Positions 7,421 through 62,482 of a stretch of DNA of 64,000 nt are shown one piece after another (within the stretch, counting starts at the first letter, position 1; each line of letters starts with the position of its first letter). The position numbers and the translations under genes were made by a program. The stretch spans positions 64,001 through 128,000 of IMG/VR virus record IMGVR_UViG_3300037400_003528. One strand, given 5' to 3'. The DNA comes from a virus. The notes below the pieces were generated by a model. It was not told the origin of the DNA. It searched no databases and saw nothing but the letters and a program-made list of their open reading frames with translations.

Positions 7421-7448
7421 ATTTAAAATGTAGAGGAGGAGATAATTA

Positions 7449-16214: not shown

Positions 16215-16293
16215 TATGGTCAAAAAATAATAAGTAATTATTTTAAATTTTAAATATAATTATAACAATTAAGAGAAAAAAGGAGGTAGTATA

Positions 16294-24963: not shown

Positions 24964-25436
24964 ATTATTAACCTTTCTGCATATTGATTATTACTAGCTA
25001 AATTTACACCCAATGTTTCATCATAATGTTGCTCTTGATTAGGTATAAATCTTCCATATTTTATAATTATATTATCAAAATTTTTTAAAAAAGTCAAATA
25101 CCATTTAATTTCTTCTTTATTATATCCAGTATAGATTATTATATCATCATTAGATACCTATCTAAATTTTTTAATAAAATCTAGTACCTAATAGAAAGAA
25201 TCAAATGGTTCTAATCCTTGAAAAACAATAGCTTCAGAAATATTATTATTTAAATAACTATTTATAATTTCTTTTATAGGTATATTTATTTTCTTTGCGG
25301 AAGCTAGGTCTGAGTTCTGACAGACCTGTTTCCCGCATTCTTTATCACATTTAAATGTGCAACAAGGCATCATTATTGTCATACAAGGTTTTTTATAATT
25401 TATAAAATCTTCATTTATAATATCAATTACTTTCAT
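24960..25436 (-). CDS. nrdG: anaerobic RNR activating protein NrdG-like radical-SAM enzyme (158 aa, 2 TAG)
   Basis: A Cys cluster 'CTFKCDKEC' and 'FQGLEPF' are present. The gene sits immediately downstream of nrdD with an ATGA overlap. Confidence 0.7.
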
Positions 25437-27385
25437 ACTTTTTTTACCGTTTGATTAATAGGCTCCCAGCGTCGCATTTTATATTCTTTTACTCTTGCAT
25501 TTGACCAAGTATTAATTGGAGTATAAAAACCTACAACACGAGTATATTCTGTTTCAACAGGTTTTCCACAAATTGGGCAAGTTCTTCCATAAAAGGCATG
25601 ATTATCTTCACAAGCCTGAATTTTTGTATTAAAAGCAAAATATGTCACACCAGCATCAGCAATATATTTTACCATTTTATAAGCCATTTTATAAGAATTA
25701 AAAGGAGCATCAATATTAACATGAAGAATAGATCCACCATTGCAAAAACTATCAAATAAAGCCTGTACTCTTATTCTCTCTTGCAATGTAGTTTTTATTC
25801 CTAATGGAATAAATTGATTACCATAAAGAGGTAAATCATAAATTGAAGCATTAGGATAAAAGAACATATCTTTTTTCATAAGTTTTGCGGCGGCAGTTTC
25901 ACCAGGAATTTGTTCTGTATTAATCATATAATCACAATTATAAGTTTCAATAAATTCATCAGCAGTTTGTCTCATTACTTTAAAGATTTTTTCTCCAAAT
26001 TTACTTGCCTTTTCTGTATAAAAATTATTTCCTAAATTATCTTTTTTTACATAATGGAAACGTTTCATCGTTTCATAAATACCAATAAAACCAATAGTAT
26101 TATATAAATGTTCAAAATCAACTAATTTATAAGAAAAATTAGGAAGTAATCCTTTATCTACATCACGTTTAATAATATTACGAACTATATCAAGAGCCTT
26201 TAGATTTAAAAGAACTCGTTTTTCTAACTCTTTAAGATATTCTTCTTCTGAATTTGTATCTAAAGCTAATCGTGCTAAATTAATAGTAGAAACTTTTACA
26301 CTACCAACTTTAAGGGCGGTTCCGCCGATTGAGTTAAAGTAGCCTAAATCTCTTATATCACTTTTTAATCTACAACAATTACTTAAACTATTTACACTGT
26401 CATCTACAAAAATATTACTATCTGACCATATCATATTATGTTTGATAGCCCACTTTGCAAAATCAGAATCAACAAAATCTCCGTTTTGATAAAGTAGTGA
26501 AATAGTATTTACAGGAAATGTAAACATATTTTCACTTCTCGTTTTTGCCATCTATTCCATATACCACTTTTGAAACTCAATAATTTCATCTTCATAATCA
26601 ATCATAAAAGTACCATCTGGAAATTCTGCACCACCAAATAATGCTTCAAAATAAGGTTTATCAAATACTGATGTATTGGTAAATGCGGATTGTTGTCCAT
26701 CACGAACATAAGGTTGATTCACCGCATAAATAAAACGTTGAAAGTTTTGACGCGCGTATCCTTCAGCAGACTCTGATGTAGTTATACCAAGGTAGTCCGT
26801 CTATTTATCTTTATTCCAAAAATAAAACATATATGGAATTAAGTTAGGTAAACCTACTGCTCCACTACTTCGATTACTTGCAAAACCAATAAATTCTTTT
26901 ACAAAGTCAACAAAAGTAGTAAGATGCTTTGCGGGCTTATAATTAAACGGATCTCCTATGAAATAAAGACCTTTTTCCGCTAAATCTTTTAAATCGTAAG
27001 CAAAACAATAATGTTTAAATGTAGATGTATCTGAATCATGTAAATATAATTCTCCAACCCACTCCGCACGTAACCATTCATTAGCTGTTTTAAATCCATA
27101 TTTTTTTTGAATTTCATAATAAATTTTATTAAAAGCTAAAAGTTTTCTATGTGGCTTAGGCATTTCAGAAAGTAATGTCACCATATCTTTTCGTCTAACA
27201 TTACTATTTCCATCTATTGAAACATTAGCAACTGTTTTTTCATCAATAAAATTATCTATAAAATCAGTATAACTTAATTGATCATCATCAAAACCATTGA
27301 TTCGTGCAATCTATGTTCCAAACTATCCTTGTAATTTATTATATTGTGTTGTAAAATTTTTTCCAAGTCTAATAGGTATTTGCAT
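25433..27385 (-). CDS. nrdD: anaerobic ribonucleoside-triphosphate reductase NrdD (650 aa, 4 TAG)
   Basis: ORFs 25433..26551 and 26801..27184 share a frame and are bridged by TAG-containing sequence. The C-terminal glycyl-radical region reads 'RVVGFYTP' next to a Zn site 'CPICG'. Confidence 0.85.
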
Positions 27386-27594
27386 TAGTTATAATTCTCC
27401 TTTAACCATTGAATAGCTTGTCCAAAATCTAAAATAGTATTATTTATTTCAAGGGCGGGTGCTGATAAAATACCTAACTATAACATTTTATCAATATCCT
27501 AATTTATTATATATGATATATTATTTTGATTTAATTTTTTCTACAATACTTTACATTTTGGACAATGTGTTGTATATAATATGATATTCATCAT
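27385..27594 (-). CDS. nrdH: NrdH/glutaredoxin-like redoxin (69 aa, 3 TAG)
   Basis: N-terminal 'MMNIILYTTHCPKCK' carries a CxxC thioredoxin-fold motif. The gene is adjacent to nrdD. Confidence 0.7.
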
Positions 27595-27637: not shown

Positions 27638-28192
27638 TTATTTTTGTTCATTTCGAATAATATGAAACAAATCAGATATAATAGGTTGTACCTAATTTGT
27701 TTCATTTAAAATTACTTTATAAGAAAAAGGAAGATTTTTAAAATCTTCTTTATCAGTAAAAAAACGTCTACATATTTCTGAACAATCAGGAGAACTCTAT
27801 CGTGATAATTGTCTTAATAATCTAATTTTATCAGAACAATGTATCATAATAGGTATACACTAGATATTCTATTTCTATAAAATCTAATTAATAGCTCTTG
27901 GAGAAAAAACACCAATATTAATTTTATCTTCTTTTAAATCATCTATTGATGTACCATACCACCAGTTATTGAAACATTGAGACTATATCCACTATTTGTT
28001 TTTAAACTACTAAATAGTTAAAAAATGATAATGGACATTCTATTTTTCATATACTCGCGGAGGTCTTGTAGTAGATGTAATAATCTTATGTAAATGAATT
28101 TTTCCATAAATAGTTTCAAAAAGTCTGGAAAGAATATAATCCTTTCCAGACCCTGCTGGTCCACATAAAGCGATAATTTTATATTTACTCAT
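27638..28192 (-). CDS. guanylate-kinase-like dNMP kinase (184 aa, ~9 TAG including a TAG-TAG tandem)
   Basis: P-loop 'GPAGSGKD' and 'TTRPPR' motif are present. The start overlaps the DNA polymerase stop. Confidence 0.7.
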
Positions 28193-44017: not shown

Positions 44018-44962
44018 TTATTTATTACCTTTCGTCACATTTAAACCAACTTTATTTGATTGATACATCTAAATCCAAAATCGTTCTTTTTCATTTAATT
44101 TATCACGAGTACATTTCTAAAGAATTTCAAAAGTGAAATTCCATACACCATATTTCTGCATGTTATTATAAAGTTTATTTGTTACAGAAGCGTCTATACC
44201 AAGTCCGCATTTTATATGTTGTTTCCATCTATCTGCGATATTAACACTTTGCCCAATATAAATATCACCAGTTTGTTTATTAGTAATTTTATAAATTCCG
44301 CAGATTGTAGTAGATCCTAATACACGATTACACAAATCAGAAGTAGGTTTCATTATGAAAGCAGACCAAATAATTTTAGAAACAATAGAAGGATCATTTA
44401 GTTCATTTTTCCATTCTTGAAGATGTGTAATATCGTTAATTTGTTTTTCAGATATTTTTATACGATAAAATGCAATTTTATCTTCTTCCTCTTGCTATCT
44501 AAGACGTGCGGCGGTTGCAGCCTAATATACTGATTTAAGCTAGTTTAAATTTGATTGAACTTGATCTCGTTGTTGTTGAATATTAATTATCTATTGTTTT
44601 AATTGCTACTAATAATCTTTAGCTTCTTGGGCTTGTGAAATAGAAGCATTATGATAAATCTATTTTATTTTTTTTAATTGTTCTTGATAAGTCTGTTCTA
44701 TCTATTCTAATTTTTTGCCTCTATTTTCTCTTACCTATTCTAAAATAATATATTCTTTTTGTCTTTTATTTGTTAACTATAAAATTGTATTTTGTCTCTA
44801 AGTAATACGTTCATTTAAATCATTTAATTTTTTGTGTCTTCTCTATATCTCATTTATTATCTAATTATTATATTGCTATTTTTTTTTGCCGCTTATTAAA
44901 TACCAACAAAAACAACTAGACTAAATGATAATAATAATAATAAAAATAATAATCATACTCAT
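44018..44962 (-). CDS. GIY-YIG nuclease with an N-terminal hydrophobic segment and a Gln-rich coiled coil (314 aa, ~26 TAG)
   Basis: GIY-YIG core 'GIYKITNKQTGDIYIGQSVNIADRWKQH...YGVWNFTFEIL...ERFWI' lies at the C terminus. The 5' 600 nt have no TAA/TGA and ~24 TAG. The N terminus 'MSMIIIFIIIIII.SSCFCWYLISGKKK' is hydrophobic. Confidence 0.55.
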
Positions 44963-44976
44963 TTTTTAAAAAAGAA

Positions 44977-45587: not shown

Positions 45588-47564
45588 TTAAAAATTATTA
45601 ACTATAGATAATAATTCTTCTTCATTAATAATTTTTACACCTTTTTCTTTTGCTTCTTTATTTTTTGTTGAAGAAGAATTAATATCATTATTTACTAAAT
45701 AATTTGTTTTTTTAGAAATAGAACCCGTTACTTTTCCGCCATTTGATTCAATAAACGTTTTAAGTTCATTTCTATTTTTAAAAGATTGTGTTTTACCTGT
45801 TAAAACAAAAATTTTATTTTGTAACGGTTTTATTTCTTTCTCTTCTGTATCAGGTACTGATGAAATAATTTCAACTATATAATTATCAAAAATACTATCG
45901 GCTTCTGTATAATTAAAAGTAGTAAGAGTTTTTATCATAACTTCACCAATACCCTTGATATTATAGAGTCTATCATCTTCATCAGGGAAATCAACAGCAT
46001 GTCTAAATCCATTATAGGTATGATATACTTTAATTAAATCTTCTGAAGCTACTTTACCTATCTGCGGAATACCAATTGCCGCAATAAATTTAGATGCTGT
46101 ACAATTTTTACTTTCTTCTATTGCTGTTAAAATTTTGTCAACAGAAGCCATACCGAAACCATCTTTTTCAATCCATTCATTACGATGCTCTTGTAATTTA
46201 AAAATATCTTCTAATGAATTAATCCATCCCCAATCAATAAGTTTTTCAAGAGTTTTTTTAGATAACCCTTTTATATCAAGTCCCTTTTTACCGCAGAAAT
46301 GGTCAAGACGATTAATTAATTTACCTGAGCACGCAGGGTTTGTACAATAAAGAACTTCACTATCATAATCTTTTCTTATTTCAGTAGGACTTCCACAATA
46401 AGGACACACTTCAGGAATAGGAATTAATGGAACATTATCAGGTTTATTTATTTGAACATAAGCTACTTGTGGTATAATTTGATTTGCTTTATAAATATAA
46501 ACCCTTTGTCCTGAGAAAGCTCCTTTCATAATGTTTTTCATAACAGAAATATTATGAAGACTTGCTCTATTACAAATAGTTCCATCAATATCAATATCAT
46601 TATAAATTAGTACGGGAGTTAATTGTCCTGTTCTTCCCATAGTCCATTCAATATCTTTTACTTCTGTTTCATATTCATCATCGTAAAATTTATAAGCAAT
46701 CCCGCCTTTAAAGTGATGATCGGTACGACCTGCTGCTTCATATTCAGCAATATTATCATATTTAAAAACAATTCCATCAATAGGATAAGATTCTTCTTCA
46801 CACATGCTCTTTATATCATTAATGACATTTTCATAATCATAATTATGTTTATTAAAATATTCATCATTTAAAAAAGGAACTGTAAGAAACTTCCAAAACA
46901 TTAAAGTAGTAAGAGTATTTGTTAAAAATACAGCTTTTGGTTCTACAATATCCCAAGCCACAAAAGTAAGATTACGTTTCTCACACTCTTTTGAATCTAA
47001 AAGTCTTATGCTACCACTTGCAAAATTTCTTGGGTTTTTATAAGAACCTTTAAAAGCTTCAAAATTTTTATAAGTACAAATAATTTCGCCATCAACAATA
47101 ACTTCTTTTGTTTTTATTGGTATATGTTTAGGAATGGATGGAATTACCATAGCATTATGGGTTATATCTTCTCCTATGATACCATTTCCTCTTGTCTCTG
47201 CGGATACTAATTCTCCATTAACGTATCGTAAAGAACAAGTAAGACCATCCATTTTAGCCATAGCAATCCATTCTTTATTATTAAGGAATGTTTTAATTTC
47301 TTCTATATCTTTTGTTTTTTGAAGAGAAAGCATAGGATGATTATGAGTAACTTTTCTTAATTTATTAACTACACTATAATGAATTGATTGTGTGGGAGAG
47401 TCAGGATAAATAAGATTAGTTTCTTTTTCAAGTTTTTCTAATTTACCGTACATTATATCCCATTCCATATCAGTAAGATATGGTTCTCCTTTATCATAGG
47501 CTTCTGTTGCTTGATTTAATTTATTTATAAAAGTTCTTATATCTTTTGAATTATTTATCATCAT
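45588..47564 (-). CDS. ligA: NAD-dependent DNA ligase LigA (658 aa)
   Basis: Adenylation domain, Zn finger 'CPYCGSPTEIRKDYDSEVLYCTNPAC' and a C-terminal BRCT-like region. No TAG. Confidence 0.85.
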   Translation of the reverse strand: MMINNSKDIRTFINKLNQATEAYDKGEPYLTDMEWDIMYGKLEKLEKETNLIYPDSPTQSIHYSVVNKLRKVTHNHPMLSLQKTKDIEEIKTFLNNKEWIAMAKMDGLTCSLRYVNGELVSAETRGNGIIGEDITHNAMVIPSIPKHIPIKTKEVIVDGEIICTYKNFEAFKGSYKNPRNFASGSIRLLDSKECEKRNLTFVAWDIVEPKAVFLTNTLTTLMFWKFLTVPFLNDEYFNKHNYDYENVINDIKSMCEEESYPIDGIVFKYDNIAEYEAAGRTDHHFKGGIAYKFYDDEYETEVKDIEWTMGRTGQLTPVLIYNDIDIDGTICNRASLHNISVMKNIMKGAFSGQRVYIYKANQIIPQVAYVQINKPDNVPLIPIPEVCPYCGSPTEIRKDYDSEVLYCTNPACSGKLINRLDHFCGKKGLDIKGLSKKTLEKLIDWGWINSLEDIFKLQEHRNEWIEKDGFGMASVDKILTAIEESKNCTASKFIAAIGIPQIGKVASEDLIKVYHTYNGFRHAVDFPDEDDRLYNIKGIGEVMIKTLTTFNYTEADSIFDNYIVEIISSVPDTEEKEIKPLQNKIFVLTGKTQSFKNRNELKTFIESNGGKVTGSISKKTNYLVNNDINSSSTKNKEAKEKGVKIINEEELLSIVNNF

Positions 47565-47761
47565 GCTTCATAATCCTCATAATTTCTATTAACAGATTCT
47601 CCGCAAAAAGGACAAATAGCTGTAATGTACAACTCATTTCTCCAATTATTACGAGTGTAAGAAGAGTTGTCTGCTTCAAAAATACAATCACATTTAGAAC
47701 AAATAAAACGTTTTGTTTCGTTCATTTTTTTTAAAGAACCATCTTTAATAATTTTAATCAT
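47561..47761 (-). CDS. small Zn-ribbon protein (66 aa)
   Basis: 'CSKCDC...CPFCG'. Confidence 0.45.
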   Translation of the reverse strand: MIKIIKDGSLKKMNETKRFICSKCDCIFEADNSSYTRNNWRNELYITAICPFCGESVNRNYEDYEA

Positions 47762-49797
47762 AGTACAATTACGGATTGAACCGTACTCCTTTCTATAATT
47801 TTTGTACCAGAACCATTTTTAGATTGTTCAGATAATTCAGATACAGTTGTACAAATAGAATTAGGTTTACCTACTACTAAAATAGAATCATCTTCTTTTA
47901 ATGGAGCAATAGAAGCTATATAATCATTTTTTTCAAGAGGAATAATATTAATACCTCTACCGTTTCTTTTTTGAATAATAAAGTTATTTATATCTACTTT
48001 TTTACTATTGCCATTACAAGTAAAAACTCCAAGATAACTAATATCTTTAGAAATATAAAAAGCAGAAACTACTTCATCATTTTCTTTTAAAGCAATTCCT
48101 TTTACACCGCTTGTAGCTTTCCCAATAGGTTTAATATCATCTGTTGGTACTTTTATAACATTACCAAATTTAGTAGCAAAAATAACATCTTCTTTATTCA
48201 TAAAAGTAACTGATAATAATTCATCCCCATCTTTAATTTTAATAGCTTGAATACCTGTTGACTTTTTTATAGAAATATATTCTTCTATTTTAGTCTTTTT
48301 TATTAAACCATTTTTAGTAAAGAAAACTACATAATTCGCAGGCTTTTCTCCAGAAATAGCTGTAGCTGTTTGAAACACTTCATTATCAGCAAAAGGAAGA
48401 AGTAAATGTAAATTAGTTCCTCTTGAAGCATTAGTTCCTTCAGGAATTTTATCTACCGCTAATTTATACATTTTACCTTTTGATGTAAATATCATTAAGT
48501 CATCAAGAGTATTAGTAGATATGGTCGTTTTGATTGCGGCATCCACAGTTTTTACACCTTTACCGTTTCTTTTTTGTATTCTAAAACTCTTTTTAGGAAT
48601 ACGTTTAATATCTCCGGTATGGGTAATAATAACTACGACATCTTCAGGAGTTATATCAATTTTTTCTTTTTCTTCTTTTACGTCGTCAATTTGAGTTAAC
48701 TCTGTACGACGTTTATCTCCATATTTATTAACCAAATCCGCCAAACGAACTTTTAACAAATCTATTTGTTCTTCTTTACTATTGATAAGGCTTTCCCATT
48801 TTTGAATATTATAAACTAATTCATTTCGCTCTTTTTCTAATTCTACACCTTCTAATTTTGCTAAACTTGAAAGTCGCATAGCAAGAATGGCTTTTGCTTG
48901 ATTCTCGGTAAAGCCCCATTTTTCAATAAGGGAGATTTTTGCTGTTGCTCCAGACTCACTTTGTTTGATAAGAGCAATGATTTCGTCAATATGAATAATG
49001 GCTCTAAGTAAACCATCAACAATTTCCTTTCTTAATTTAGCTTTTTCTAAATCAAATTGAGTTTCTTTAACGATACATTCGAGATTATGGTCTACATAGA
49101 TTTTTATAGCATCCCGCAAGTTTAATTCAGTAGGAGTTTTATCTACCAAAGCTACCTGATTATAACTAAATGAAGTTTGAAAATTAGTTTTTGCATAAAT
49201 TTGTTTTGCAATTGCATCAGGTGAAAAACCTTTTTGACATGTTACAACAATTCTAATTTCTTTAGAACTTTCATCATGTATATCATGAATACCTTTTATT
49301 TCTTCCTTGTCACAAATTTCACCAAGTTCTGTAATTAATCCTTCTATTGTAGTTCCATATGGAATTTCATAAAAGATAATTTTATTTTTATCTACTTTAT
49401 AACGTGCTCTAATTTTTACAGAACCATGTCCCGTTTCCATAATTTTAGGGATGTCATTTTTATTAATGATTAATCCCCCAGTAGGAAAGTCAGGACCAGG
49501 CAACATAGGAAGAGCACCATCCAAATAATTATATATGGCTTGACCAACATCATACAGGTTGTGAGGAGCCCAGTTACAGGCCATCGCAACACCAATACCA
49601 GTATTAGGATTACAAAGCAAATTAGGAAAGGTACAAGGGAGAGTAATAGGCTCTTTAAGACTTTCATCATAATTTGAGATAAAATCAACGTTATTTTTCT
49701 TAATTCCATTTAACATACCTTCTTCTGATATTTTACTAAGGCGGGCTTCGGTATAACGTGCGGCAGCAGGTCCATCACCTGTAATATTACCATTATT
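47758..49797 (-). CDS. type II DNA topoisomerase A subunit (GyrA/T4 gp52-like), exon 2
   Basis: Begins 'NNGNITGDGPAAARYTEARLSKI', the catalytic-Tyr region of GyrA. It continues as the supplied ORF 47758..49716. Confidence 0.75.
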   Translation of the reverse strand, partial: NNGNITGDGPAAARYTEARLSKISEEGMLNGIKKNNVDFISNYDESLKEPITLPCTFPNLLCNPNTGIGVAMACNWAPHNLYDVGQAIYNYLDGALPMLPGPDFPTGGLIINKNDIPKIMETGHGSVKIRARYKVDKNKIIFYEIPYGTTIEGLITELGEICDKEEIKGIHDIHDESSKEIRIVVTCQKGFSPDAIAKQIYAKTNFQTSFSYNQVALVDKTPTELNLRDAIKIYVDHNLECIVKETQFDLEKAKLRKEIVDGLLRAIIHIDEIIALIKQSESGATAKISLIEKWGFTENQAKAILAMRLSSLAKLEGVELEKERNELVYNIQKWESLINSKEEQIDLLKVRLADLVNKYGDKRRTELTQIDDVKEEKEKIDITPEDVVVIITHTGDIKRIPKKSFRIQKRNGKGVKTVDAAIKTTISTNTLDDLMIFTSKGKMYKLAVDKIPEGTNASRGTNLHLLLPFADNEVFQTATAISGEKPANYVVFFTKNGLIKKTKIEEYISIKKSTGIQAIKIKDGDELLSVTFMNKEDVIFATKFGNVIKVPTDDIKPIGKATSGVKGIALKENDEVVSAFYISKDISYLGVFTCNGNSKKVDINNFIIQKRNGRGINIIPLEKNDYIASIAPLKEDDSILVVGKPNSICTTVSELSEQSKNGSGTKIIERSTVQSVIVL

Positions 49798-50987
49798 CTA
49801 ATCGTTATTAACCATAGGCTTTTTGTCCTATGCTCTGGAGGTTTCCCTCATTTTCATCGAATAGTTAATTCTATTCCAGTATAGCATATCTTTTTAACAT
49901 AATAAACTCTGTTATTATACTACCCGTTAGCGCGGACTCTTGGAGATATTATATTCTTAAATTCGCATTTAAGGTTCAATCTCTATGCGTTGCGTTTGAC
50001 TATATTATTACATATAGCCTTCAATCTCTGATTAGGATGACTAAACCCTTCCAGTTTAATTCCGCGCTGATCATTCTAAATTAATTGGTAGTTTCATTTA
50101 GAACGGCATAATTTTTAACTAAGTCAAATTTTCTTTCAAGATATAATTGATTTTCATTCTCTAATATGTTATGGTAAAATTTTATTATTCCATCTTTATT
50201 AGAAATTCTTAATCTAAAAATAGAATTTATTTGATCTAATTCAATTGGATTAATTTTTATTGTTTTTTCAAGATATTCTTTAATAGATTCGCACAACTCT
50301 TTTGTTCCTGAAATACCTATTTCATGACTATTTTTAGAAAAATAACACCAACCATCCCCGTCGAAAATACCCCTAATAAAAGCATTTTGTAATTTTTCAT
50401 TGTTAAAATTATACATAGGCTCATGATTTAAAGAAATTTTATTTGGAATAATTCCATATTTTAATATTGCATTACACATTTCTCTACTTGAAATGGTTAA
50501 ATTAGCAATAGAATTTTGTTTTCCTTCTGTGAAACCAGAACCATTTTCAATTTTTATAGGAATATTACTTTTTAAACACTGATTGAATTTTTCAAGAATA
50601 GATTTATCATCAGCTTTTAGTCTAAATCGAATAGTTGTTCCAGTATTATTTCCATCTGCTAATAAAAAACCTAACCAGTATGCTTTTTCAGCAGTATCAA
50701 TTTTATTAAAGTATGTTCTATTATAAGAATATTTTTCTCTTTTTGATCGGGAAGGAATATTTAATGCTTTTAGTTTATTATAAAAGGTGCCTCGATCAAT
50801 ATTAAATTTTTTAGCTACATCTGTAGTTGATTCTTCTTCATTTTCTAAATAATACTAGAGAGCTTGTTTATAAGTTTCATTCATTTTAATCATATAAAAT
50901 ATCTCCTTTTTATTTTTGATATTTTATATAAAATTTTACCATAGAAATTTAATCAATTTTTACCTTGAATGTTAAAAATTTTTATTT
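49798..50987 (-). other. putative group I intron (~1.19 kb) splitting the topoisomerase A-subunit gene
   Basis: Exon 1 ends '...RYPLIDWHG' and exon 2 begins 'NNGNITGDG', reconstructing the GyrA motif 'YPLVDGQGNFGS.DGDGAAAMRYTE'. The 3' segment 49798-50080 is GC-richer with P7/P8-like pairings (agtata...tatact) and a terminal G. An endonuclease ORF is embedded. Confidence 0.5.
50081..50893 (-). CDS. intron-encoded LAGLIDADG homing endonuclease (270 aa, 1 TAG)
   Basis: Motifs 'WLGFLLADGN' and 'FIRGIFDGDGW' are present, with its own RBS 'aaaaggagat'. Confidence 0.8.
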
Positions 50988-51287
50988 ACCGTGCCAATCT
51001 ATAAGAGGGTAACGCATAACCCAAGGTTGAGAAAGACGAACCATTGCTCCATAGATTGAACTGTCTCCATGAGGGTGATATTTACCCATAACATCACCAA
51101 CAATTCTTGCCGCTTTAACGTGAGGCTTAGATGAAGTCCGCCCTTCTTCAAATGCTGACCAGAGAATACGTTTTGCAACAGGTTTAAGGCCAGATTTGGC
51201 ATCAGGAATTGCTCTGTCGGTATTAACAGCTACCGCATATTCTATAAAGTTTGTACTTAATTCTTTTGTTAAATCATTCTGTATCAT
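50988..51287 (-). CDS. type II DNA topoisomerase A subunit, exon 1 (100 aa)
   Basis: 'RAIPDAKSGLKPVAKRILW...GKYHPHGDSSIYGAMVRLSQPWVMRYPLIDWHG' matches the GyrA N terminus. Confidence 0.75.
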
Positions 51288-51522
51288 CTATTACCTCATA
51301 TTCTATGCTATCAATCCCACCATAATCTTCTACACTATAGTCATCTATAACTAAATCTAAATCATGAAGAATCTCTTCTTCGTAAACAAATTTTTTAGGA
51401 TTTTCTTGAAGTCTTTTAAACTCTTCTGCTGTTAATTCTAAAACACCCTCTTTATGTCCATAACGAAGATGTCCTACTACATATTCTAATGGAATATCGA
51501 ATTTTACTTTTTTATTCTGCAT
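51274..51522 (-). CDS. small acidic hypothetical protein (82 aa)
   Basis: Starts at an internal ATG with an RBS, overlapping the GIY-YIG gene end. Confidence 0.4.
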   Translation of the reverse strand: MQNKKVKFDIPLEYVVGHLRYGHKEGVLELTAEEFKRLQENPKKFVYEEEILHDLDLVIDDYSVEDYGGIDSIEYEVIDDTE

Positions 51523-52063
51523 TATAAGTAGCCTCCTTACCAATAAACTCCCATCGTAATGGCTCTCCTGTAATAGGATGTTTACCATTTGTTTTTAATC
51601 TTCCTTTTCCATTAGCAACTTGTCTAATGTGGTTTCGATCTCCTCCCTTGCACCATTCTGCAGCTCTACTGGCATTATCAAAAATTTGACCAGTATTTAT
51701 ACAACGTATTTTTTTACCTTTTCCATAATTAGGATGTTTTTCTCCAGATAAATTTTTAGAAATTTTTTCTTTTGTTTCTTCTGATAAGGCTCCTTGAGAA
51801 CTAGCATTTCTTATATTATAACCAAACTGTTTATTTTGAGTATTAAATAAATTTATATATTCTTGTTCTTTGAGGTTAGCTTCTTCTAAAGTTAAGTTAC
51901 TTTCTAAAATTTTAACTGAAAAGTTATCCCAACCATATTTTTGAATGGCCTAGTAAAAAGCAACACAATTTTTATACTTTTTACCTTCTTTACCTGACCT
52001 TTGGTACAAAGAAGAACAAGTTTGTCCAATATATTTTTTATGATTTATTTTATTTTCATACAT
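51512..52063 (-). CDS. free-standing GIY-YIG endonuclease (Seg/I-TevI-like), 183 aa, 1 TAG
   Basis: 'KKYIGQTCSSLYQRSGKEGKKYKNCVAFY.AIQKYGWDNFSVKILE' is a GIY-YIG core. Located between the topoisomerase subunit genes. Confidence 0.7.
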
Positions 52064-52096
52064 ATATATTTTATATATATTCATTAATTTTTCCCT

Positions 52097-53995
52097 TTAA
52101 ATAAGACATTGTGCTTCTATACTGTGTTCTTTAATAAATACTTTTCTCGGAATAATAGCAGTTCCCATTAAATCATCAAATAATTTATCTGTTTCTTCGC
52201 TATCATCAATCGTAATTTGTTTAATAATTCTATTAGCAGGATTTGTAAGAGTCTCTTCTATTTGTTCAACATCCATTTCTCCTAATCCTTTCATACGATT
52301 GACTTGATACTTTCCCGTATAAGTTTTTCTAAATGCTTCAAGGTCATCATCATTCTTTAAATATTTATAACCTTTATTTCCACCAAGAGTAATTTTATAA
52401 AGAGGTGGAACTCCAGCATAAATGATACCGTCATAAATCAATTGAGGACAAAAGTTCCAAATAAAAGTATAAAATAGATTTTTAATATGAGCACCGTCTA
52501 CGTCAGCGTCACTCATAATAATAATTTTACCATAGCGGAGTCCATCACGGTCATATGTAACCCGCATTGTTTTTGTATCAATCTTTAAACCAAACGCTTC
52601 AATCATAGTCATAATCTCAGCATTTTTTTGAATCTTATCTAAGGTAGCTTTTTGTGTATTAAGGATTTTACCACGGACAGGCATTACAGCTTGAAATTCA
52701 TTATTACGTGCCGTTTTTAAACCACCTGCCGCACTATTTCCTTCAACAATATAAATTTCACATCTTTCTCTATCTTCACTATAGCAGTCCGCAAGTTTAC
52801 TATCAAATTTTAAAGCCTTTTCTTTTTTCTTTCCTTGCTCTCTTGCTTTTTCTCTTGCCTTTTTAGCAGCTTCTCTTGCTTTTTTAGCATTAATAGCTTT
52901 GTCTGCAATAAGTTTAATTTCTTTTTCATTATTAGCTAACCAATATTGAAGATTTTCAGTTAAAGCTACATTAAAAGGTTTCATTTCAATTTTAGTAATA
53001 CGAGTTTTAACTTGTGCATCATATGATACATTTGGAGCAGTAATATTAAAAACAATATACATACCTTCTTGTATATCATCACCAGTTAAATTTTCATCTG
53101 TGGATTTAAGCCATTTCTTTTCTTTAAAAAATTTGTTAAATTCACGAGTAATAATAGATTTTACTTGTGTAATATGTTGTCCAGTTTCAGTTAAGCCAGT
53201 ATTAACATATGGAACAATAGTAGATGAATAATTAGAAGTATAGGTAAGAACCATATCCATTTTATTCTTACCTTCTGCAAAATTCATATCAAATCTATTA
53301 TTAATAAGTTCTTTATTTCCAACTGCGGCATCAACTAAATCATTTAAACCTTTATTAGATATATAGTCATATATCTTACCATTCTCATTTAAATGAATTG
53401 TTAATCCGGGGCATAGACAAGAAATAGTTTTAAATAAAGAATGAATTTTATTACTTTCTACTTCTGTATGAGTAAAAAATTCCTCTGAAGGTTGCCATTC
53501 TACTAATGTACCAGATACGCCGCCTGCGCCAGTACTTCTATTTTGAAAAACACCTTCTTTAAAATATATTTCTTCCCATTCTCCGTTTCTTATAGTTTTA
53601 ACTCTTAGCCAATGAGATAAAAATGTAGTAATTTTAGAACCAATACCAAAAGAACCTAATGAAGTTCCTTCATAAGTTCCATCTTCTCTATATTTACCAG
53701 AAGTATTAAGAACACTAAAAGCAGCTTCAAGAATTGTTTTATCGTCTTCTCTAAAATGATTTGGAAGAAAACCTTGTCCATAATCTCTTACAGCAAAAGT
53801 ATCTCCAATTATCGTTACATCAATTTGATTACCATGTCCAAGTCTAAATTCATCAATTGCATTAGAAACAATTTCTATGAGCAACTGAGTTGAATACGTA
53901 GTATCACCTGCATATACACCTGGTTTTAATCTGGTAAATTGTAATGGATCTAATGATTCTATTGATTGTTCTGTATATAAGGTTTTATCTATCAT
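52097..53995 (-). CDS. type II DNA topoisomerase ATPase/TOPRIM subunit (GyrB/T4 gp39+gp60-like), 632 aa
   Basis: Supplied ORF with a GHKL ATPase N terminus and TOPRIM 'EGNSAAGG'. Confidence 0.85.
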   Translation of the reverse strand: MIDKTLYTEQSIESLDPLQFTRLKPGVYAGDTTYSTQLLIEIVSNAIDEFRLGHGNQIDVTIIGDTFAVRDYGQGFLPNHFREDDKTILEAAFSVLNTSGKYREDGTYEGTSLGSFGIGSKITTFLSHWLRVKTIRNGEWEEIYFKEGVFQNRSTGAGGVSGTLVEWQPSEEFFTHTEVESNKIHSLFKTISCLCPGLTIHLNENGKIYDYISNKGLNDLVDAAVGNKELINNRFDMNFAEGKNKMDMVLTYTSNYSSTIVPYVNTGLTETGQHITQVKSIITREFNKFFKEKKWLKSTDENLTGDDIQEGMYIVFNITAPNVSYDAQVKTRITKIEMKPFNVALTENLQYWLANNEKEIKLIADKAINAKKAREAAKKAREKAREQGKKKEKALKFDSKLADCYSEDRERCEIYIVEGNSAAGGLKTARNNEFQAVMPVRGKILNTQKATLDKIQKNAEIMTMIEAFGLKIDTKTMRVTYDRDGLRYGKIIIMSDADVDGAHIKNLFYTFIWNFCPQLIYDGIIYAGVPPLYKITLGGNKGYKYLKNDDDLEAFRKTYTGKYQVNRMKGLGEMDVEQIEETLTNPANRIIKQITIDDSEETDKLFDDLMGTAIIPRKVFIKEHSIEAQCLI

Positions 53996-59576: not shown

Positions 59577-59602
59577 ATATAAGAAAATGATTTTGTGTTC
59601 TT

Positions 59603-59632
59603 TTGAAAAAGAGTAAAAGAAATAAATATAAA
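59603..59632 (+). promoter_or_regulatory. candidate promoter TTGAAA-18-TATAAA (plus strand)
   Basis: A weaker match upstream of the palindrome and RBS. Confidence 0.35.
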
Positions 59633-59635
59633 GGA

Positions 59636-59655
59636 GTAGGAAATATATTTCCTAC
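59636..59655. promoter_or_regulatory. perfect 20-bp palindrome gtaggaaata|tatttcctac between the promoter and RBS (candidate operator)
   Basis: Exact dyad symmetry 16 nt upstream of ATG 59672. Confidence 0.5.
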
Positions 59656-59671
59656 AAAAAGGAGAGAAAAA

Positions 59672-62482
59672 ATGCCAGGAATAAGCAATAATTTATATCC
59701 ACCAATTTTTAAAAAATCTTATGTTCCTGCTTTTGTAGGTTCATGTGAAATATATTTTTCTATTTCTGCTTATAATAGTTAGAGTGATATAAATACACAA
59801 TGTATACAAGTTAGTGTTCAAAATCAAAAAACAAATCAATCTGTTTTAAATAAAAATAAATACCCAAGCGGAGTTATGATAACAACATTAAAAATTAATA
59901 ATGATATTAAAACAGAAAATAAATATTCTATTGTTATTTTAGGTAATGATATAGAAGGTGGATTTCAATATAATCAATATTATAAAGTACAAATACGTTT
60001 TACTGGATCTAATGTTCGTACACCGGTAATGACATCAAATTCTTATAAAATAGATCAATGGATAAATAATAATTTATCTAATTTTTCATAGTGGTCAACA
60101 GTAGTATTAATAAAAGCTATAAGTAAACCAGAAATAAAATTAAAGTATTTTGAATCAGATTCTATTGTTACTGTAACAACAAGTAATTTAACTGTATTAG
60201 GGACAGTAACTAATCATATAAAAGATTATGAACTTTTAAAAAGTTATAAGATTTTAATTTATAATACTTAGGATGTTTTATTAGAAGAAAGTGAAAATAT
60301 ATTATTTGATTCTTCTAATAAAATTGAATATAATTGTAGATACAATTTTGAATCGTAGCATTATTATAAATTGTGTGTACAAATATTAACTAAAAATTTA
60401 TATTTTATGTAGCAATTTTTTGATTTTTATGTAAGTTATTCTTTTTATGGAAATTTTGGCGGACAAATAGAAGCTACTATTAGTGAAAATATTGGATGTG
60501 CTATTATAACTATAAAAAATAATGAATTTTCTTAGTTAGGTACAAATATTGTAATTAGACGAACTTCTAATAAAGATAATTTTAAATATTGGGAAGATGT
60601 TTTTACAACATCAGTTAAACCTAATGTAATGTTAAATTTAGTATGGAGAGATTATACTATAGAAAGCGGAATATGGTATAAATATAGTGTAGTAACACGT
60701 AATAAGAATAATATTAGATCGAATCCAGTTTAGATTAAATATCCTATAATGGGAATTTTTGAAGATATATTTTTAACGACAAAAGATCAACAATTAAAAG
60801 TTCGTTTTGATCCTCAAATAAATAATTTTTCAACAGTGGTTTCAGAATCTTTAACTGAAACATTAGGCTCAAAATATCCTTTTATTAGAAGAAATGGTGC
60901 AGTAAATTATAGAACTTTTTCTTTAAGTGGAACAATAAGTTATTTTATGGACATAGGTCAAAATTTAATGCACGCTTCTTTAGAAGAAAATTATGGAGAC
61001 TATGCTTATTTATATAATGATTATAATCAAAAAAATAATATCAATATGTTTAAAGATATTACCCAGTAGAAAGTCTTTAGAGAAAAAGTATTAACTTTTT
61101 TATATGCTAATGATATAAAATTGTATAAATCTGCGACATAGGGTAATTTATTAGTTAAATTAATGAATATTAATTTAACCCCTAATAATAGTTTAGGTAG
61201 ACAAATTTATACTTTTAATTGTACTGTCTATGAAATTGATAATTTTAATTATTAGAATTGTATAAAATATGGTATTCAAGAATAGGGTGAATATGTAGAG
61301 CAAACCTCCATTACTGTAACTAAACATGGACAAATTTATATTCCACAAAGACAAATCTATGAAATGAAAACAATAGATAATGAGGAAAACAAGGTTTATC
61401 AAATAGACGAAAATCTTTTTTTTGGTACTCAAGATTTATTAACAACTAAAATTGCGGAAAAATATAAAACATTAGCGAGATATAATACTTCTATTAGTGT
61501 TCAAAATTTAACTTATTTAAAAATTTAGTTAACGAATGATCCATATCCTATAGGAATAGAAAGTGGGATTCCGCGAAGATTAGAAATAAGTACAAATAAT
61601 ACTTATTTAGGACATATCGTAATAATTAATGGATAGTATATTATTATTGGAAAAGATGGGATATATGAGTTATCAGGAGATGATATTAGTATTACTAGTT
61701 TATCTTTTGTTTACCCTAATGAACAGGGAATTATAGATTATGAGGTTTCATTAACAGAATCTATAAAGACAGAACAAGATTTTCTAAGAATTACTTCTCT
61801 TTTCAAAACAGGTCAATTATGGGGTACTTTTGCTCTGTAGAATAATTTAATTTATACATAGATAGCTAATAAATATAAATTTGAAGAAGCTAATTTAAAA
61901 TTTAGTCAAGAATTACAACGAATAAAGGGTTTATGTGTACAAGCGGAACCTGGTATGACTTTTTATATAAAATAGAATCAAGATAGTGATTATGAAAAAC
62001 ATGTATTAAATGAAACTGGCTTATTAGAATTTTATAATGATGATACTGATATAAAAGGATTATATTTTATTGGACCTAAATTAACAGAAGTCTCAGCAGA
62101 AGAGCTAAGACAAAGAGGATTAGGACCAAATGAATTTTATGATACAAATTAGGTTATTACAGTAACAGAAATAAATGCACCTCATAATAATTATGTTTAT
62201 CGTATTTCTCCAATGGGTAGAATAGATTCAGATTCTTTAGTAATAGGAGAAGAAGAAATAGATAATTTACCAGAAAATCCTTCTTTTTTATTATGGGATG
62301 TTATGAATACTGTTGGTGAAGATTTAAATTATAGTACGTTAGGACTTTTTTATAGTTCTTTTGGTAAATATATTTATTATCAAGGAACTTGGTATCCTTT
62401 TACAAATAATAATGAAGTAATTATTCCTAATGTAGAAGCTATTGTAGATTATTATTGTGAAATTTTAAGAAAGGAGTATTAA
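59672..62482 (+). CDS. large virion structural protein, hypothetical (936 aa, ~20 TAG)
   Basis: RBS 'aaaaaggagag' precedes the start. All lines 59672-62482 were read in triplets with only TAG interruptions. The frame links ORFs 59876.., 60749.. and 62213.. Confidence 0.65.

What the first reader, a model, noticed from the sequence alone, without database searches (positions are those of the whole stretch)
49798..50987. Topoisomerase II A-subunit gene interrupted by a putative group I intron carrying a LAGLIDADG endonuclease
Two in-frame pieces reconstruct the GyrA-type sequence across the break ('...RYPLIDWHG' + 'NNGNITGDGPAAARYTEARL...'). The intervening 1.19 kb holds an endonuclease ORF with its own RBS. 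Its 3' part, 49798-50080, is GC-richer than the genome and contains P7/P8-like elements ('agtata'...'aacagagtttattatgtt'...'aagatatgctatact') and a terminal G. Exon 1 ends in U, as expected at a group I 5' splice site. The split lands in the catalytic winged-helix region, a typical intron/intein target. An alternative reading is that the gene is truly split, as T4 genes 39/60/52 are, and not spliced.
Basis: partly seen in the sequence, partly recalled or inferred. Interest (0 to 1): 0.65.

Follow-up and report, generated by a model that had tools for sequence, protein, structure and literature searches.

The report
Mobile group I intron in phage gyrA
A phage DNA-gyrase gene is interrupted by a self-splicing-type (group I) intron carrying its own homing endonuclease, a known kind of selfish element already described at this exact site in Bacillus phage AR9; here it sits in a phage that reads the TAG stop codon as an amino acid.

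Summary

**The insertion.** Window 50987..49798 (minus strand, 1190 nt) interrupts gyrA between codons HG|NN. Close relatives with 94-97% identical GyrA carry the uninterrupted sequence ...gattggcatggt|aataatggt... at this point.

**Homology.** The 3' 313 nt are about 75% identical to both introns of Bacillus phage AR9 gyrA. One of those sits at the same codon. The same core occurs in at least 119 viral contigs.

**Structure.** On a structure-blind alignment of 19 homologues, a group I (subgroup IA-like) fold is supported. It runs P1/P1a, P2-P9.2, with the P3/P7 pseudoknot order. 92.8% of cells are paired, and 47 of 66 pairs show double changes. The splice site has a U·G pair, and the intron ends in G.

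**The endonuclease.** The LAGLIDADG gene lies in the P1a loop.

**Rfam.** Rfam finds nothing. It also misses the AR9 introns, and it scores the T4 td intron below its own threshold. The negative result therefore does not refute the intron.

- Its P7 assignment was wrong.
- It missed an in-frame TAG at codon 13 of the endonuclease.

That TAG is not a defect: the whole genome uses TAG as a sense codon, apparently Gln.

**Verdict.** This is a new member of a known kind, of modest interest.

The parts
50988..51287 (-). gyrA exon 1 (100 codons, ends ...W H G; last base U). The last 5 nt, ACGGU (50992..50988), form the exon strand of P1.
49798..50987 (-). Group I intron, 1190 nt. The boundary is ambiguous by up to 2 nt at sequence level (a/aa repeat); it is fixed here by U at -1 and the terminal G.
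50971..50980 (-). P1a 5' strand, AAUUUUUAAC. It pairs with 50119..50110; the helix closes the 851-nt loop that holds the endonuclease gene.
   Evidence: The helix covaries in AR9 i1/i2, phiR1-37 and BpSp, where the loop is 15-35 nt in the ORF-less forms.
50890..50931 (-). Predicted 14-bp hairpin. The Shine-Dalgarno AAAGGAG (50909..50903) lies mostly in its loop, and the endonuclease AUG (50893..50891) lies in its 3' strand.
   Evidence: Analogous start-occluding hairpins with different sequence are predicted in L130, L131 and phiR1-37. Z-scores are modest (-1.0 to -2.6).
50081..50893 (-). LAGLIDADG homing endonuclease gene: 270 codons plus TAA, two LAGLIDADG motifs (LGFLLADGN, IRGIFDGDGW) and an N-terminal HTH-like region. 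Its last ~13 codons overlap the P1a 3' strand, the IGS and P2.
50855..50857 (-). In-frame TAG, codon 13 of the endonuclease gene. Read as a sense codon, probably Gln.
50103..50119 (-). P1a 3' strand GUUAAAAAUU (50119..50110), then AU, then the internal guide sequence GCCGU (50107..50103). The IGS pairs with exon ACGGU with a U·G at the splice site.
50075..50102 (-). P2 hairpin, UCUAAAU/AUUUAGA.
   Evidence: all 7 pairs have double changes
49930..50067 (-). P3 (GCGCGGA 50067..50061 with UCCGCGC 49936..49930). It encloses P4 (50054..50051/50031..50028), P5 (50048..50045/50038..50035), P6 (50019..50013/50004..49998), the P7 5' strand GCAUA (49988..49984), P7.1 (49983..49979/49947..49943) and P7.1a/P7.2 (49973..49967/49962..49956).
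49884..49929 (-). P8 (outer UAAC/GUUA 49929..49926/49898..49895; inner AUAAUAA/UUAUUAU 49918..49912/49905..49899), then J8/7 AAAAAGA, then the P7 3' strand UAUGC (49888..49884).
49798..49883 (-). 3' domain: J7/9, P9 (49876..49871/49864..49859), P9.1 GAGG-GAAA-CCUC (49849..49838), P9.2 (49832..49827/49818..49813), then GUUAAUAACGAUUAG ending in the terminal G at 49798.
47758..49797 (-). gyrA exon 2 (679 codons plus TGA). The catalytic Tyr codon TAT is at 49755..49753. The first ATG is at 49716..49714.

Best explanation
**What it is.** The 1190-nt insertion is a mobile group I intron of the phage subgroup-IA type. It carries a P7.1 extension between P7 and P3'. It belongs to a large, sequence-conserved family that includes both gyrA introns of Bacillus phage AR9.

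**How it would work (inferred).**
- gyrA is transcribed as one pre-mRNA.
- The internal guide sequence GCCGU (50107..50103) pairs with the last five exon bases, ACGGU, giving a U·G pair at the splice site (P1).
- The core P3-P9 folds. An external guanosine attacks after U50988.
- The terminal G (49798) then docks, and the exons are ligated to ...CACGGU|AAUAAUGGU...
- This restores an uninterrupted GyrA whose catalytic tyrosine lies 15 codons past the junction.
- Unspliced RNA yields only a 101-aa stub, because a TAA stop lies two codons into the intron.

**The endonuclease.** The terminal loop of P1a holds a two-motif LAGLIDADG homing endonuclease gene. By analogy with other intron endonucleases, its product would cut intron-less gyrA alleles at this site during co-infection. 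Repair of the break would then copy the intron in.

**The TAG codon.** The host phage decodes TAG as a sense codon, apparently Gln. The single in-frame TAG in the endonuclease gene is therefore read through. That TAG and a hairpin over the start codon may delay endonuclease synthesis.

**Shown:** the insertion boundaries, the homology, the covariation-supported fold, the polymorphism and the recoding.
**Inferred:** catalysis, homing and the timing of expression.
For: **1. Exact insertion.** IMG/VR relatives with 94-97% identical GyrA (L134-L139) have the uninterrupted sequence gattggca(t/c)ggt|aataatggtaat, 81-85 of 90 nt identical to the joined exons. The joined protein aligns gap-free to solved GyrA.

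**2. Homology to known introns.**
- The 3' core is 74.9% identical over 97% of its length to AR9/PBS1 gyrA intron 1. It also matches intron 2.
- AR9 g044 is annotated as a three-piece join. Its second intron sits at LIDAHG|NFGS, the same codon boundary.
- Korn et al. (bioRxiv 10.1101/2020.12.14.422802) state that AR9 gyrA is disrupted by two introns, and that mature AR9 mRNA sequences were determined experimentally.

**3. Mobility signature.**
- In a 20-kb megablast of the window against 50,697 phage records, the only matching segment is the intron core.
- The 20-mer AATGAGGGAAACCTCCAGAG occurs in at least 119 viral contigs.
- Partial matches to the core lie in split terminase and tail genes of Clostridium and Staphylococcus phages.

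**4. Structure.** On a MAFFT alignment of 19 distinct homologues made without structure (A2):
- 92.8% of cells pair, against 71.2% when shuffled.
- 47 of 66 pairs have changes on both sides.
- The covariation score is 0.567, against 0.167 shuffled (0 of 500 shuffles reach it) and 0.06-0.12 with slid partners.
- RNAalifold independently recovers P2, P3, P4, P5, P6, P8, P9, P9.1 and P9.2.
- In the window sequence every one of the 66 pairs is a standard pair.
- The single-sequence fold has z = -4.1.

**5. P1 and P1a.** U(-1)·G plus 3-6 bp is found in all 10 introns examined. P1a is 10-13 bp and differs in sequence while keeping its pairing in nine of them. Its loop is 851 nt here, and 15-35 nt in ORF-less relatives.

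**6. Architecture.** The layout parallels the Rfam alignment of T4 td: P7, then the insertion, then P3', P8, J8/7 and P7'.

**7. Endonuclease.**
- Pfam LAGLIDADG_3 scores 35.5 bits, above the 22.5-bit cut-off. PHROG 4645 'endonuclease' gives E = 2.7e-46.
- Full-length homologues of 270 aa exist. The TAG at codon 13 is kept in four diverged copies whose ORFs are otherwise intact.
- The L131 orthologue has an ordinary Gln codon at that position.

**8. Recoding.**
- ORFs of at least 100 aa cover 37.9 kb under code 11, and 65.6 kb if TAG is a sense codon.
- NrdD aligns to T. maritima NrdD across four TAGs.
- No gene ends in TAG.
Against: - No RNA data exist. Splicing of this copy is inferred, not shown.
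- Rfam RF00028 gives no hit even at E <= 10 on the isolated 336-nt core. The controls show that the model is insensitive to this subclass.
- P7 and P9.1 are invariant in the 19 sequences of the alignment. Covariation can neither support nor contradict them there. One outside relative, L131 intron 2, has GAAG/CUUC in P9.1, which is compensatory.
- P5 needs a register shift in the AGC/GCU variants.
- No convincing P10 was found.
- The original AR9 paper (Lavysh 2016) could not be read. The statement that AR9 splicing was verified is therefore second-hand.
- If TAG were a stop during endonuclease expression, only a 12-aa peptide would be made.
Confidence: 0.93

Rival explanations
1. Genuinely split gene. 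A homing endonuclease cassette has cut gyrA into two separately translated pieces that assemble after translation, as with T4 gp39/gp60 or Aeromonas phage Aeh1 NrdA. No RNA splicing takes place.
For: - Exon 1 has its own stop (TAA two codons after the junction).
- If TAG is read as a sense codon, the exon 2 frame stays open upstream to 49893. It then contains in-frame ATGs at 49851 and 49815.
- Gene callers on related contigs did call such extended downstream ORFs (699, 711 and 708 aa).
Against: - Under the standard code, a TAG stop lies immediately before exon 2. The first ATG (49716) is 3' of the catalytic Tyr codon.
- The two upstream ATGs lie inside the conserved ribozyme helices P9.1 and P9.2. 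They have no convincing Shine-Dalgarno sequence. They occur in all family members whatever the downstream frame.
- gyrA contains no TAG codon of its own, which suggests it is translated under the standard code.
- A split-gene model does not explain about 300 nt of conserved, covarying RNA structure with a guide sequence complementary to the exon end.
Confidence: 0.03
2. Dead element. The intron and/or its endonuclease are decayed relics, so gyrA is a pseudogene in this phage or is rescued by host gyrase. On this view the TAG in the endonuclease gene is a nonsense mutation.
For: - Under code 11 the endonuclease ORF is broken after 12 codons.
- Rfam gives no hit.
Against: - All 66 modelled base pairs are standard pairs in this copy.
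- Both exons are intact, and the N-terminal 310 residues of the joined product are 94-97% identical to uninterrupted relatives.
- The TAG is conserved at the same codon in copies that differ at about 46 of 813 nt, and in a 75%-identical copy, with no other stops.
- TAG is demonstrably a sense codon in this genome.
Confidence: 0.03
3. Assembly artefact. On this view the insertion is a chimeric join of unrelated metagenomic reads.
For: None specific. The window appears to be metagenome-derived.
Against: The same exon 1 - endonuclease - core - exon 2 arrangement is found in independent assemblies from different samples: L004 (ENA), L005 and L006 (Logan), L130 and L131. The boundaries coincide to the base with those expected for a group I intron.
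Confidence: 0.01

Closest known systems
Bacillus phage AR9 / PBS1 gyrA (g044) introns 1 and 2
   Same: - The ribozyme family is the same: about 75% nt identity over the 3' core, with the same helices and the same IGS, GCCGU.
- Intron 2 lies at the identical codon boundary, HG|N.
- The host gene is the same.

   Different: - Both AR9 introns lack an ORF (P1a loops of 29 and 35 nt). The window intron carries an 851-nt loop with a LAGLIDADG gene.
- The host GyrA proteins are only about 29% identical.
- AR9 uses the standard code, whereas this phage reads TAG as a sense codon.
Goe21 and Yersinia phage phiR1-37 gyrA/topo II introns with a LAGLIDADG endonuclease
   Same: - The ribozyme family is the same.
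- The endonuclease is homologous (33% and 27% identity) and sits in the same place, the P1a loop.
- The 3' end of the ORF overlaps the IGS and P2.

   Different: - They are inserted at a different gyrA site, G|(E/R)YHPHG, about 31 codons upstream.
- They are annotated in GenBank as separate 'gyrA_1/gyrA_2' or 'topoisomerase II' CDSs, not as introns.
Phage T4 td intron with I-TevI (subgroup IA2)
   Same: - The overall group IA layout is the same: P7, a peripheral insertion, P3', P8, an A-rich J8/7, P7' and P9.
- A stop codon follows soon after the 5' splice site.
- The endonuclease start is predicted to be occluded by a hairpin. That I-TevI is regulated this way is my recollection of the literature, not tested here.
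   Different: - There is no detectable sequence similarity.
- The T4 endonuclease is of the GIY-YIG type and sits in P6a, not in P1a.
- The peripheral insertion here is one extended arm (P7.1 enclosing a second helix) rather than two side-by-side hairpins, so the exact sub-subgroup is left open.
Group I intron endonuclease in an early gene of TGA-recoded 'Agate' phages (Borges et al., bioRxiv 10.1101/2021.08.26.457843)
   Same: An intron-encoded homing endonuclease inside a gene free of recoded stops. The endonuclease itself carries in-frame recoded stop codons, which the authors propose delays its production.
   Different: That case uses TGA read as Trp, with statistical enrichment of the recoded codon. 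Here it is a single TAG (apparently Gln) in a TAG-recoded phage, and the host gene is gyrA.

Membership tests
Group I intron | P1 helix between the 5' exon end and an internal guide sequence, with a U·G wobble at the splice site | tested here: met
   Exon ACGGU (50992..50988) pairs with IGS GCCGU (50107..50103), with U(-1)·G. The same pattern holds in all 10 related introns examined.
Group I intron | Guanosine as the last intron nucleotide (omega-G) | tested here: met
   G at 49798. AR9 i1/i2, Goe21, phiR1-37, BpSp, L130 and L131 also end in G at the junction deduced from protein alignment.
Group I intron | Conserved core P3-P4-P5-P6-P7-P3'-P8-P7'-P9 with the P3/P7 pseudoknot order, supported by covariation | tested here: met
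   - 92.8% of cells paired; 47 of 66 pairs with double changes.
- Covariation 0.567, against 0.167 shuffled (0/500) and at most 0.124 with slid partners.
- RNAalifold agrees for nine helices.
- P7 itself is invariant, so it is untested by covariation.
Group I intron | Guanosine-binding site in P7 and catalytic activity (two transesterifications started by an external G) | not testable with these tools
   P7 (GCAUA/UAUGC) and its flanks are invariant in all 19 homologues. This fits a catalytic role but does not prove one. Splicing is reported for the AR9 homologues only second-hand.
Group I intron | Match to Rfam RF00028 at the gathering score (a detection criterion, not a defining feature) | tested here: not met
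   No hit at gathering or at E <= 10. Controls: AR9, Goe21 and phiR1-37 also give no hit. T4 td scores 40.3 bits, below the gathering score of 50.
Subgroup IA group I introns | Extra helices (P7.1/P7.2 or P7.1/P7.1a) between the P7 5' strand and P3' | tested here: met
   P7.1 (GAGAU/AUCUC) encloses a second helix (CUUAAAU/AUUUAAG). Both have double changes across homologues. The sub-subgroup (IA1, IA2 or IA3) was not resolved.
LAGLIDADG homing endonuclease | LAGLIDADG motif(s) with a conserved acidic residue, and a family profile match | tested here: met
   Two motifs, LGFLLADGN and IRGIFDGDGW. PF14528 scores 35.5 bits, above the 22.5-bit cut-off. D80/G81 and D178-G181 are invariant in 14 homologues.
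LAGLIDADG homing endonuclease | Intact reading frame | tested here: inconclusive
   The frame is intact (270 codons) only if TAG at codon 13 is decoded. Genome-wide evidence that TAG is a sense codon is strong. The TAG is conserved in relatives. Whether and when it is decoded in this mRNA is unknown.
LAGLIDADG homing endonuclease | Site-specific cleavage of the intron-less allele | not testable with these tools
   A candidate target exists: the uninterrupted gattggcatggt|aataatggtaat in L134-L139.
Mobile (homing) intron | Presence/absence polymorphism at one site among close relatives, and related copies in unrelated genomes | tested here: met
   - Intron-less alleles occur in relatives with 94-97% identical GyrA.
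- Goe21 lacks the AR9 intron 2.
- The core is shared with Bacillus and Yersinia phages and with at least 119 viral contigs; partial matches occur in Clostridium and Staphylococcus phages.
Split gene without splicing (T4 39/60, Aeh1 nrdA type) | Downstream piece with its own start codon and ribosome-binding site that keeps the essential residues | tested here: not met
   - A TAG stop lies directly upstream of exon 2.
- The first ATG (49716) is past the catalytic Tyr codon (49755..49753).
- The in-frame ATGs usable only if TAG is a sense codon (49851, 49815) lie inside conserved helices and have no clear Shine-Dalgarno sequence.
Intein | Insertion in frame with the host protein and without stop codons | tested here: not met
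   A TAA stop lies two codons after the junction, and the intervening ORF is in its own translational unit.

The most novel reading that the evidence does not exclude
Synthesis of the intron endonuclease may be gated twice at the level of translation. One gate would be a hairpin that buries its start codon. The other would be an in-frame TAG that can be decoded only once the phage has switched the cell to its TAG-as-sense code. The ribozyme could then splice early gyrA mRNA undisturbed by ribosomes, and the endonuclease would appear only late, when co-infecting genomes are available as homing targets. The free-standing GIY-YIG endonuclease next door (52084..51512) also carries a single TAG and may use the same trick.
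Probability: 0.3. Interest if true: 0.5.

Novelty: new member of a known kind. Interest (0 to 1): 0.3.

Why it matters
**For annotation**
- Standard pipelines would report two gyrA fragments, a broken endonuclease and no intron.
- Rfam's group I model misses this whole phage intron family, which occurs in at least 119 IMG/VR contigs and several cultured phages.
- Code 11 truncates the endonuclease.
- A dedicated covariance model for this family, combined with code-15 gene calling, would recover many 'split' phage genes.

**For biology**
- Three intron insertion sites lie within about 35 codons of the gyrA catalytic region in different phages. This adds to the evidence that the segment is a hot spot for homing elements.
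- The case adds a TAG-recoded example to the proposal that stop-codon recoding delays intron endonuclease production.

None of this changes the current understanding of group I introns.

Tried and rejected
**Rfam searches.** I ran the whole window at gathering score, 1.6 kb at E <= 10, and the isolated 336-nt core at E <= 10. There was no group I hit. I reject this as evidence against an intron. The same library misses the AR9, Goe21 and phiR1-37 introns, and it scores T4 td below its own threshold.

Rejected. It lies 3' of P3', and the pairing is absent or poor in most homologues.

**A dedicated promoter or terminator for the endonuclease.** The scan found 17 promoter-like sites against 14.6 expected. 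Nothing can be claimed.

**tRNAs.** There is no suppressor tRNA in the window.

**Identity of the amino acid at TAG, from NrdD.** The four TAG positions align to non-conserved residues (K, E, K, W) in T. maritima NrdD. This proves read-through but not Gln. The Gln assignment rests on one orthologous position in L131 and on the majority of homologues.

**Solved structures.** The sequence search with the endonuclease gave only chance-level hits.

**Lavysh et al. 2016, the AR9 genome paper.** It is not held in the library.

**Other copies of this intron family in the window.** None were found with two conserved motifs, allowing mismatches.

**P10 pairing.** No convincing pairing between exon 2 and the guide region was found by inspection.

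**Not attempted.** I did not build a covariance model. The MAFFT alignment already gave a clear answer, and the full-length alignment exceeds the 400-column limit.
Full report
**1. What is in the sequence**

On the minus strand the order is:
- gyrB (53995..52097);
- a GIY-YIG endonuclease gene and a small ORF;
- gyrA exon 1 (51287..50988);
- a 1190-nt insertion (50987..49798);
- gyrA exon 2 (49797..47758);
- a small ORF, then an NAD-dependent ligase gene.

Exon 1 ends ...TGG CAC GGT and runs into AAA TAA. Exon 2 begins AAT AAT GGT directly after ...GATTAG. The joined protein (779 aa) aligns without a gap across the junction to solved GyrA structures (4z2c, E = 2.6e-84). The catalytic tyrosine (RYTE, codon 49755..49753) lies 15 codons into exon 2. 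The first ATG of exon 2 (49716) lies beyond it. The two pieces therefore have to be joined to make an active enzyme.

**2. The insertion is exact and polymorphic**

A scan of viral contigs with the joined N-terminus returned many relatives whose gyrA is uninterrupted. The closest (L134-L139, 94-97% amino-acid identity) read gattggca(t/c)ggt|aataatggtaat. They are 81-85/90 nt identical to the window's exon 1 plus exon 2 around the junction. Other assemblies carry the same insertion with the same endonuclease at the same place (L004, L005, L006, L130, L131). This is the presence/absence pattern of a mobile element. It also rules out an assembly artefact.

**3. Homology to known introns**

blastn against cultured phages matched the 3' non-coding 283 nt, and little else, to several phages:
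- Bacillus phages AR9, PBS1, Internexus, Goe21 and BpSp;
- Yersinia phage phiR1-37;
- in part, split terminase and tail genes of Clostridium and Staphylococcus phages.

In a 20-kb megablast of the window, the intron core is the only matching segment.

AR9 gyrA (g044) is annotated as a join of three pieces. tblastn places its introns after ...IIG and after ...LIDAHG. The second is the same codon boundary as here (LIDWHG|NNG against LIDAHG|NFG). Goe21, a close relative of AR9, lacks that second intron. Korn et al. state that AR9 gyrA is disrupted by two introns and refer to experimentally determined mature mRNAs in AR9. I could not read the primary paper.

GyrA of AR9 and of this phage are only about 29% identical, whereas the introns are about 75% identical. 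This points to horizontal spread.

Across the relatives examined there are three intron sites within about 35 codons of gyrA:
- G|(K/R/E)YHPHG;
- HPHG|DSS;
- HG|N(N/F)G.

**4. RNA structure**

The 20-mer AATGAGGGAAACCTCCAGAG (P9.1 and flanks) occurs in at least 119 IMG/VR contigs. From these and the cultured phages I took 19 distinct sequences with an uninterrupted core. I aligned them with MAFFT, with no structural information (A2).

I proposed a structure by hand on the window sequence: P2, P3, P4, P5, P6, P7, P7.1, an inner helix (P7.1a/P7.2), P8, P9, P9.1 and P9.2, with P7 crossing P3 as in group I introns. I projected it onto the alignment. The results were:
- 92.8% of cells are standard pairs, against 71.2% after shuffling.
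- 47 of 66 pairs have changes on both sides.
- The covariation score is 0.567, against 0.167 shuffled (0 of 500 shuffles reach it). With partners slid by 1-3 columns it is 0.06-0.12.
- RNAalifold, run independently, recovers P2, P3, P4, P5, P6, P8, P9, P9.1 and P9.2, and adds a CUG/CAG closing helix.
- In the window copy all 66 pairs are standard.
- The isolated core folds with z = -4.1.

P7 (GCAUA/UAUGC) and P9.1 are invariant in the alignment, so covariation does not test them there. One outside relative (L131 intron 2) has GAAG/CUUC in P9.1, a compensatory change.

The layout is P7, a peripheral arm, P3', P8, an A-rich J8/7, P7' and P9. It parallels the Rfam alignment of the T4 td intron and marks the intron as subgroup-IA-like.

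**5. Splice sites and the position of the ORF**

The guide sequence GCCGU (50107..50103) pairs with exon ACGGU, with U(-1)·G. This pattern is found in all ten related introns examined.

Immediately inside, a 10-bp helix (P1a; AAUUUUUAAC/GUUAAAAAUU) closes a loop of 851 nt that holds the endonuclease gene. The helix differs in sequence while keeping its pairing in AR9 i1, AR9 i2, phiR1-37 and BpSp. In the ORF-less forms its loop is only 15-35 nt. Goe21 is AR9 intron 1 plus an endonuclease in that loop. The last ~13 codons of the ORF overlap the P1a 3' strand, the guide sequence and P2.

**6. The covariance-model test**

Rfam finds nothing at gathering score on the whole window. It also finds nothing at E <= 10 on 1.6 kb or on the bare 336-nt core.

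Controls show it is not one. The AR9, Goe21 and phiR1-37 loci give no group I hit either. The textbook T4 td intron reaches only 40.3 bits, against a gathering score of 50.

**7. The endonuclease and the TAG codon**

The ORF (50893..50081) has a good ribosome-binding site and two LAGLIDADG motifs. It matches PF14528 above its cut-off and PHROG 4645 'endonuclease'. It is 33% and 27% identical to the intron ORFs of Goe21 and phiR1-37.

Codon 13 is TAG. This is not a lesion:
- ORFs of at least 100 aa cover 37.9 kb under code 11, and 65.6 kb if TAG is a sense codon. One 2922-codon frame contains 92 TAGs.
- NrdD (27388..25433) aligns to T. maritima NrdD from residue 9 straight across four TAGs.
- No gene ends in TAG.
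- Genes fall into two classes. One is TAG-free (gyrA, gyrB, ligase, a 1317-codon ORF and others). In the other, TAG makes up 32-39% of TAG+CAA+CAG.
- The endonuclease TAG is kept at the same codon in copies differing at about 46/813 nt, and in a 75%-identical copy, all otherwise open.
- The 50%-identical orthologue in L131 has an ordinary Gln codon there, and carries TAGs at other positions.

The endonuclease gene is therefore probably functional in the phage's own code.

Borges et al. described the same situation for TGA-recoded phages and proposed that it delays endonuclease production. The idea is therefore not new.

A 14-bp hairpin is predicted that leaves the Shine-Dalgarno sequence in its loop and buries the AUG (50931..50890). 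Hairpins with different sequences but the same effect are predicted in L130, L131 and phiR1-37. The z-scores are modest.

**8. Rivals**

*A genuinely split gene.* With TAG as a sense codon, the exon 2 frame is open upstream and has in-frame ATGs at 49851 and 49815. Gene callers used such starts on related contigs. However, these ATGs are part of conserved helices present in all family members whatever the frame. They lack a clear Shine-Dalgarno sequence. gyrA itself avoids TAG. I rate this rival 0.03.

*A dead relic.* This is contradicted by the intact helices, the intact exons and the conserved TAG. I rate it 0.03.

*An assembly chimera.* This is contradicted by independent assemblies. I rate it 0.01.

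**9. Verdict**

It is a new member of a known, widespread phage intron family, at a site already known from AR9.

The points of some interest are practical. Rfam and code-11 annotation both fail here. The case also offers a second, TAG-based example of recoding inside an intron endonuclease.

Noticed in passing
whole window, e.g. 7446-16214 (+), 16273-20802 (+), 59591-62482 (+): The genome uses TAG as a sense codon. A 2922-codon frame has 92 in-frame TAGs, a 1509-codon frame has 19 and a 963-codon frame has 17. Coverage by ORFs of at least 100 aa rises from 37.9 to 65.6 kb when TAG is read through. No gene ends in TAG, and there is no tRNA gene in the window.
   Followed up: partly
window 25433-27388 (-), 28185-32138 (-), 45588-47564 (-), 52097-53995 (-): Genes fall into two classes. 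gyrA, gyrB, ligase, a 1317-codon ORF and several others have no TAG at all. In structural-looking plus-strand genes, a lysin and a RecJ-like gene, TAG makes up 32-39% of TAG+CAA+CAG. NrdD (4 TAGs) and the two homing endonucleases (1 each) are intermediate. This looks like the early/late split described for recoded phages.
   Followed up: partly
window 51512-52084 (-): A free-standing GIY-YIG plus NUMOD3 homing endonuclease gene (190 codons) lies between gyrB and gyrA. It too has one in-frame TAG (FY-TAG-AIQKYG). In the relative L130, gyrB abuts gyrA with nothing in between, so this gene is a separate insertion.
   Followed up: partly
window 50890-50931 (-): A predicted 14-bp hairpin has the endonuclease Shine-Dalgarno sequence in its loop and the AUG in its stem. 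Start-occluding hairpins of different sequence are predicted in L130, L131 and phiR1-37. This recalls the translational control of T4 I-TevI, which is my recollection and was not checked.
   Followed up: partly
window 49940 and 49880 (-); alignment A2 columns 309 and 378: Two unpaired positions covary. The fourth base of CCA(A/C)GAG (before P3') is C when the base in GCUAU(A/G)CUG (after P7') is G, and A when it is A, in 16 of 19 sequences. This may be a tertiary contact. It is not explained.
   Followed up: no
L131 1446-3506; L004 1-1102: Related contigs carry more insertions. L131 has two endonuclease-bearing introns in gyrA (sites HPHG|DSS and HG|NN). In the first, the ORF lies in the P8 region rather than in P1a. 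In L004, a GIY-YIG gene precedes a 192-aa C-terminal gyrB fragment, which suggests that gyrB is interrupted there as well.
   Followed up: partly
window 44018-44965 (-): A 315-codon frame with 17 TAGs has a low-complexity, coiled-coil-like N-terminal part rich in TAG. Its C-terminal part looks like a GIY-YIG domain (GIYKITN...YIGQS...NFTFEIL). I saw this only in the translation and did not run it against profiles.
   Followed up: no
L133 (T4 td, M12742.1) 1501-1731; L001-L003: Rfam RF00028 scores the classic T4 td intron at 40.3 bits, below its own gathering score of 50. It gives no hit at all on the AR9, Goe21 and phiR1-37 gyrA introns. Group I introns of phages are therefore under-called by default Rfam scans.
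   Followed up: yes
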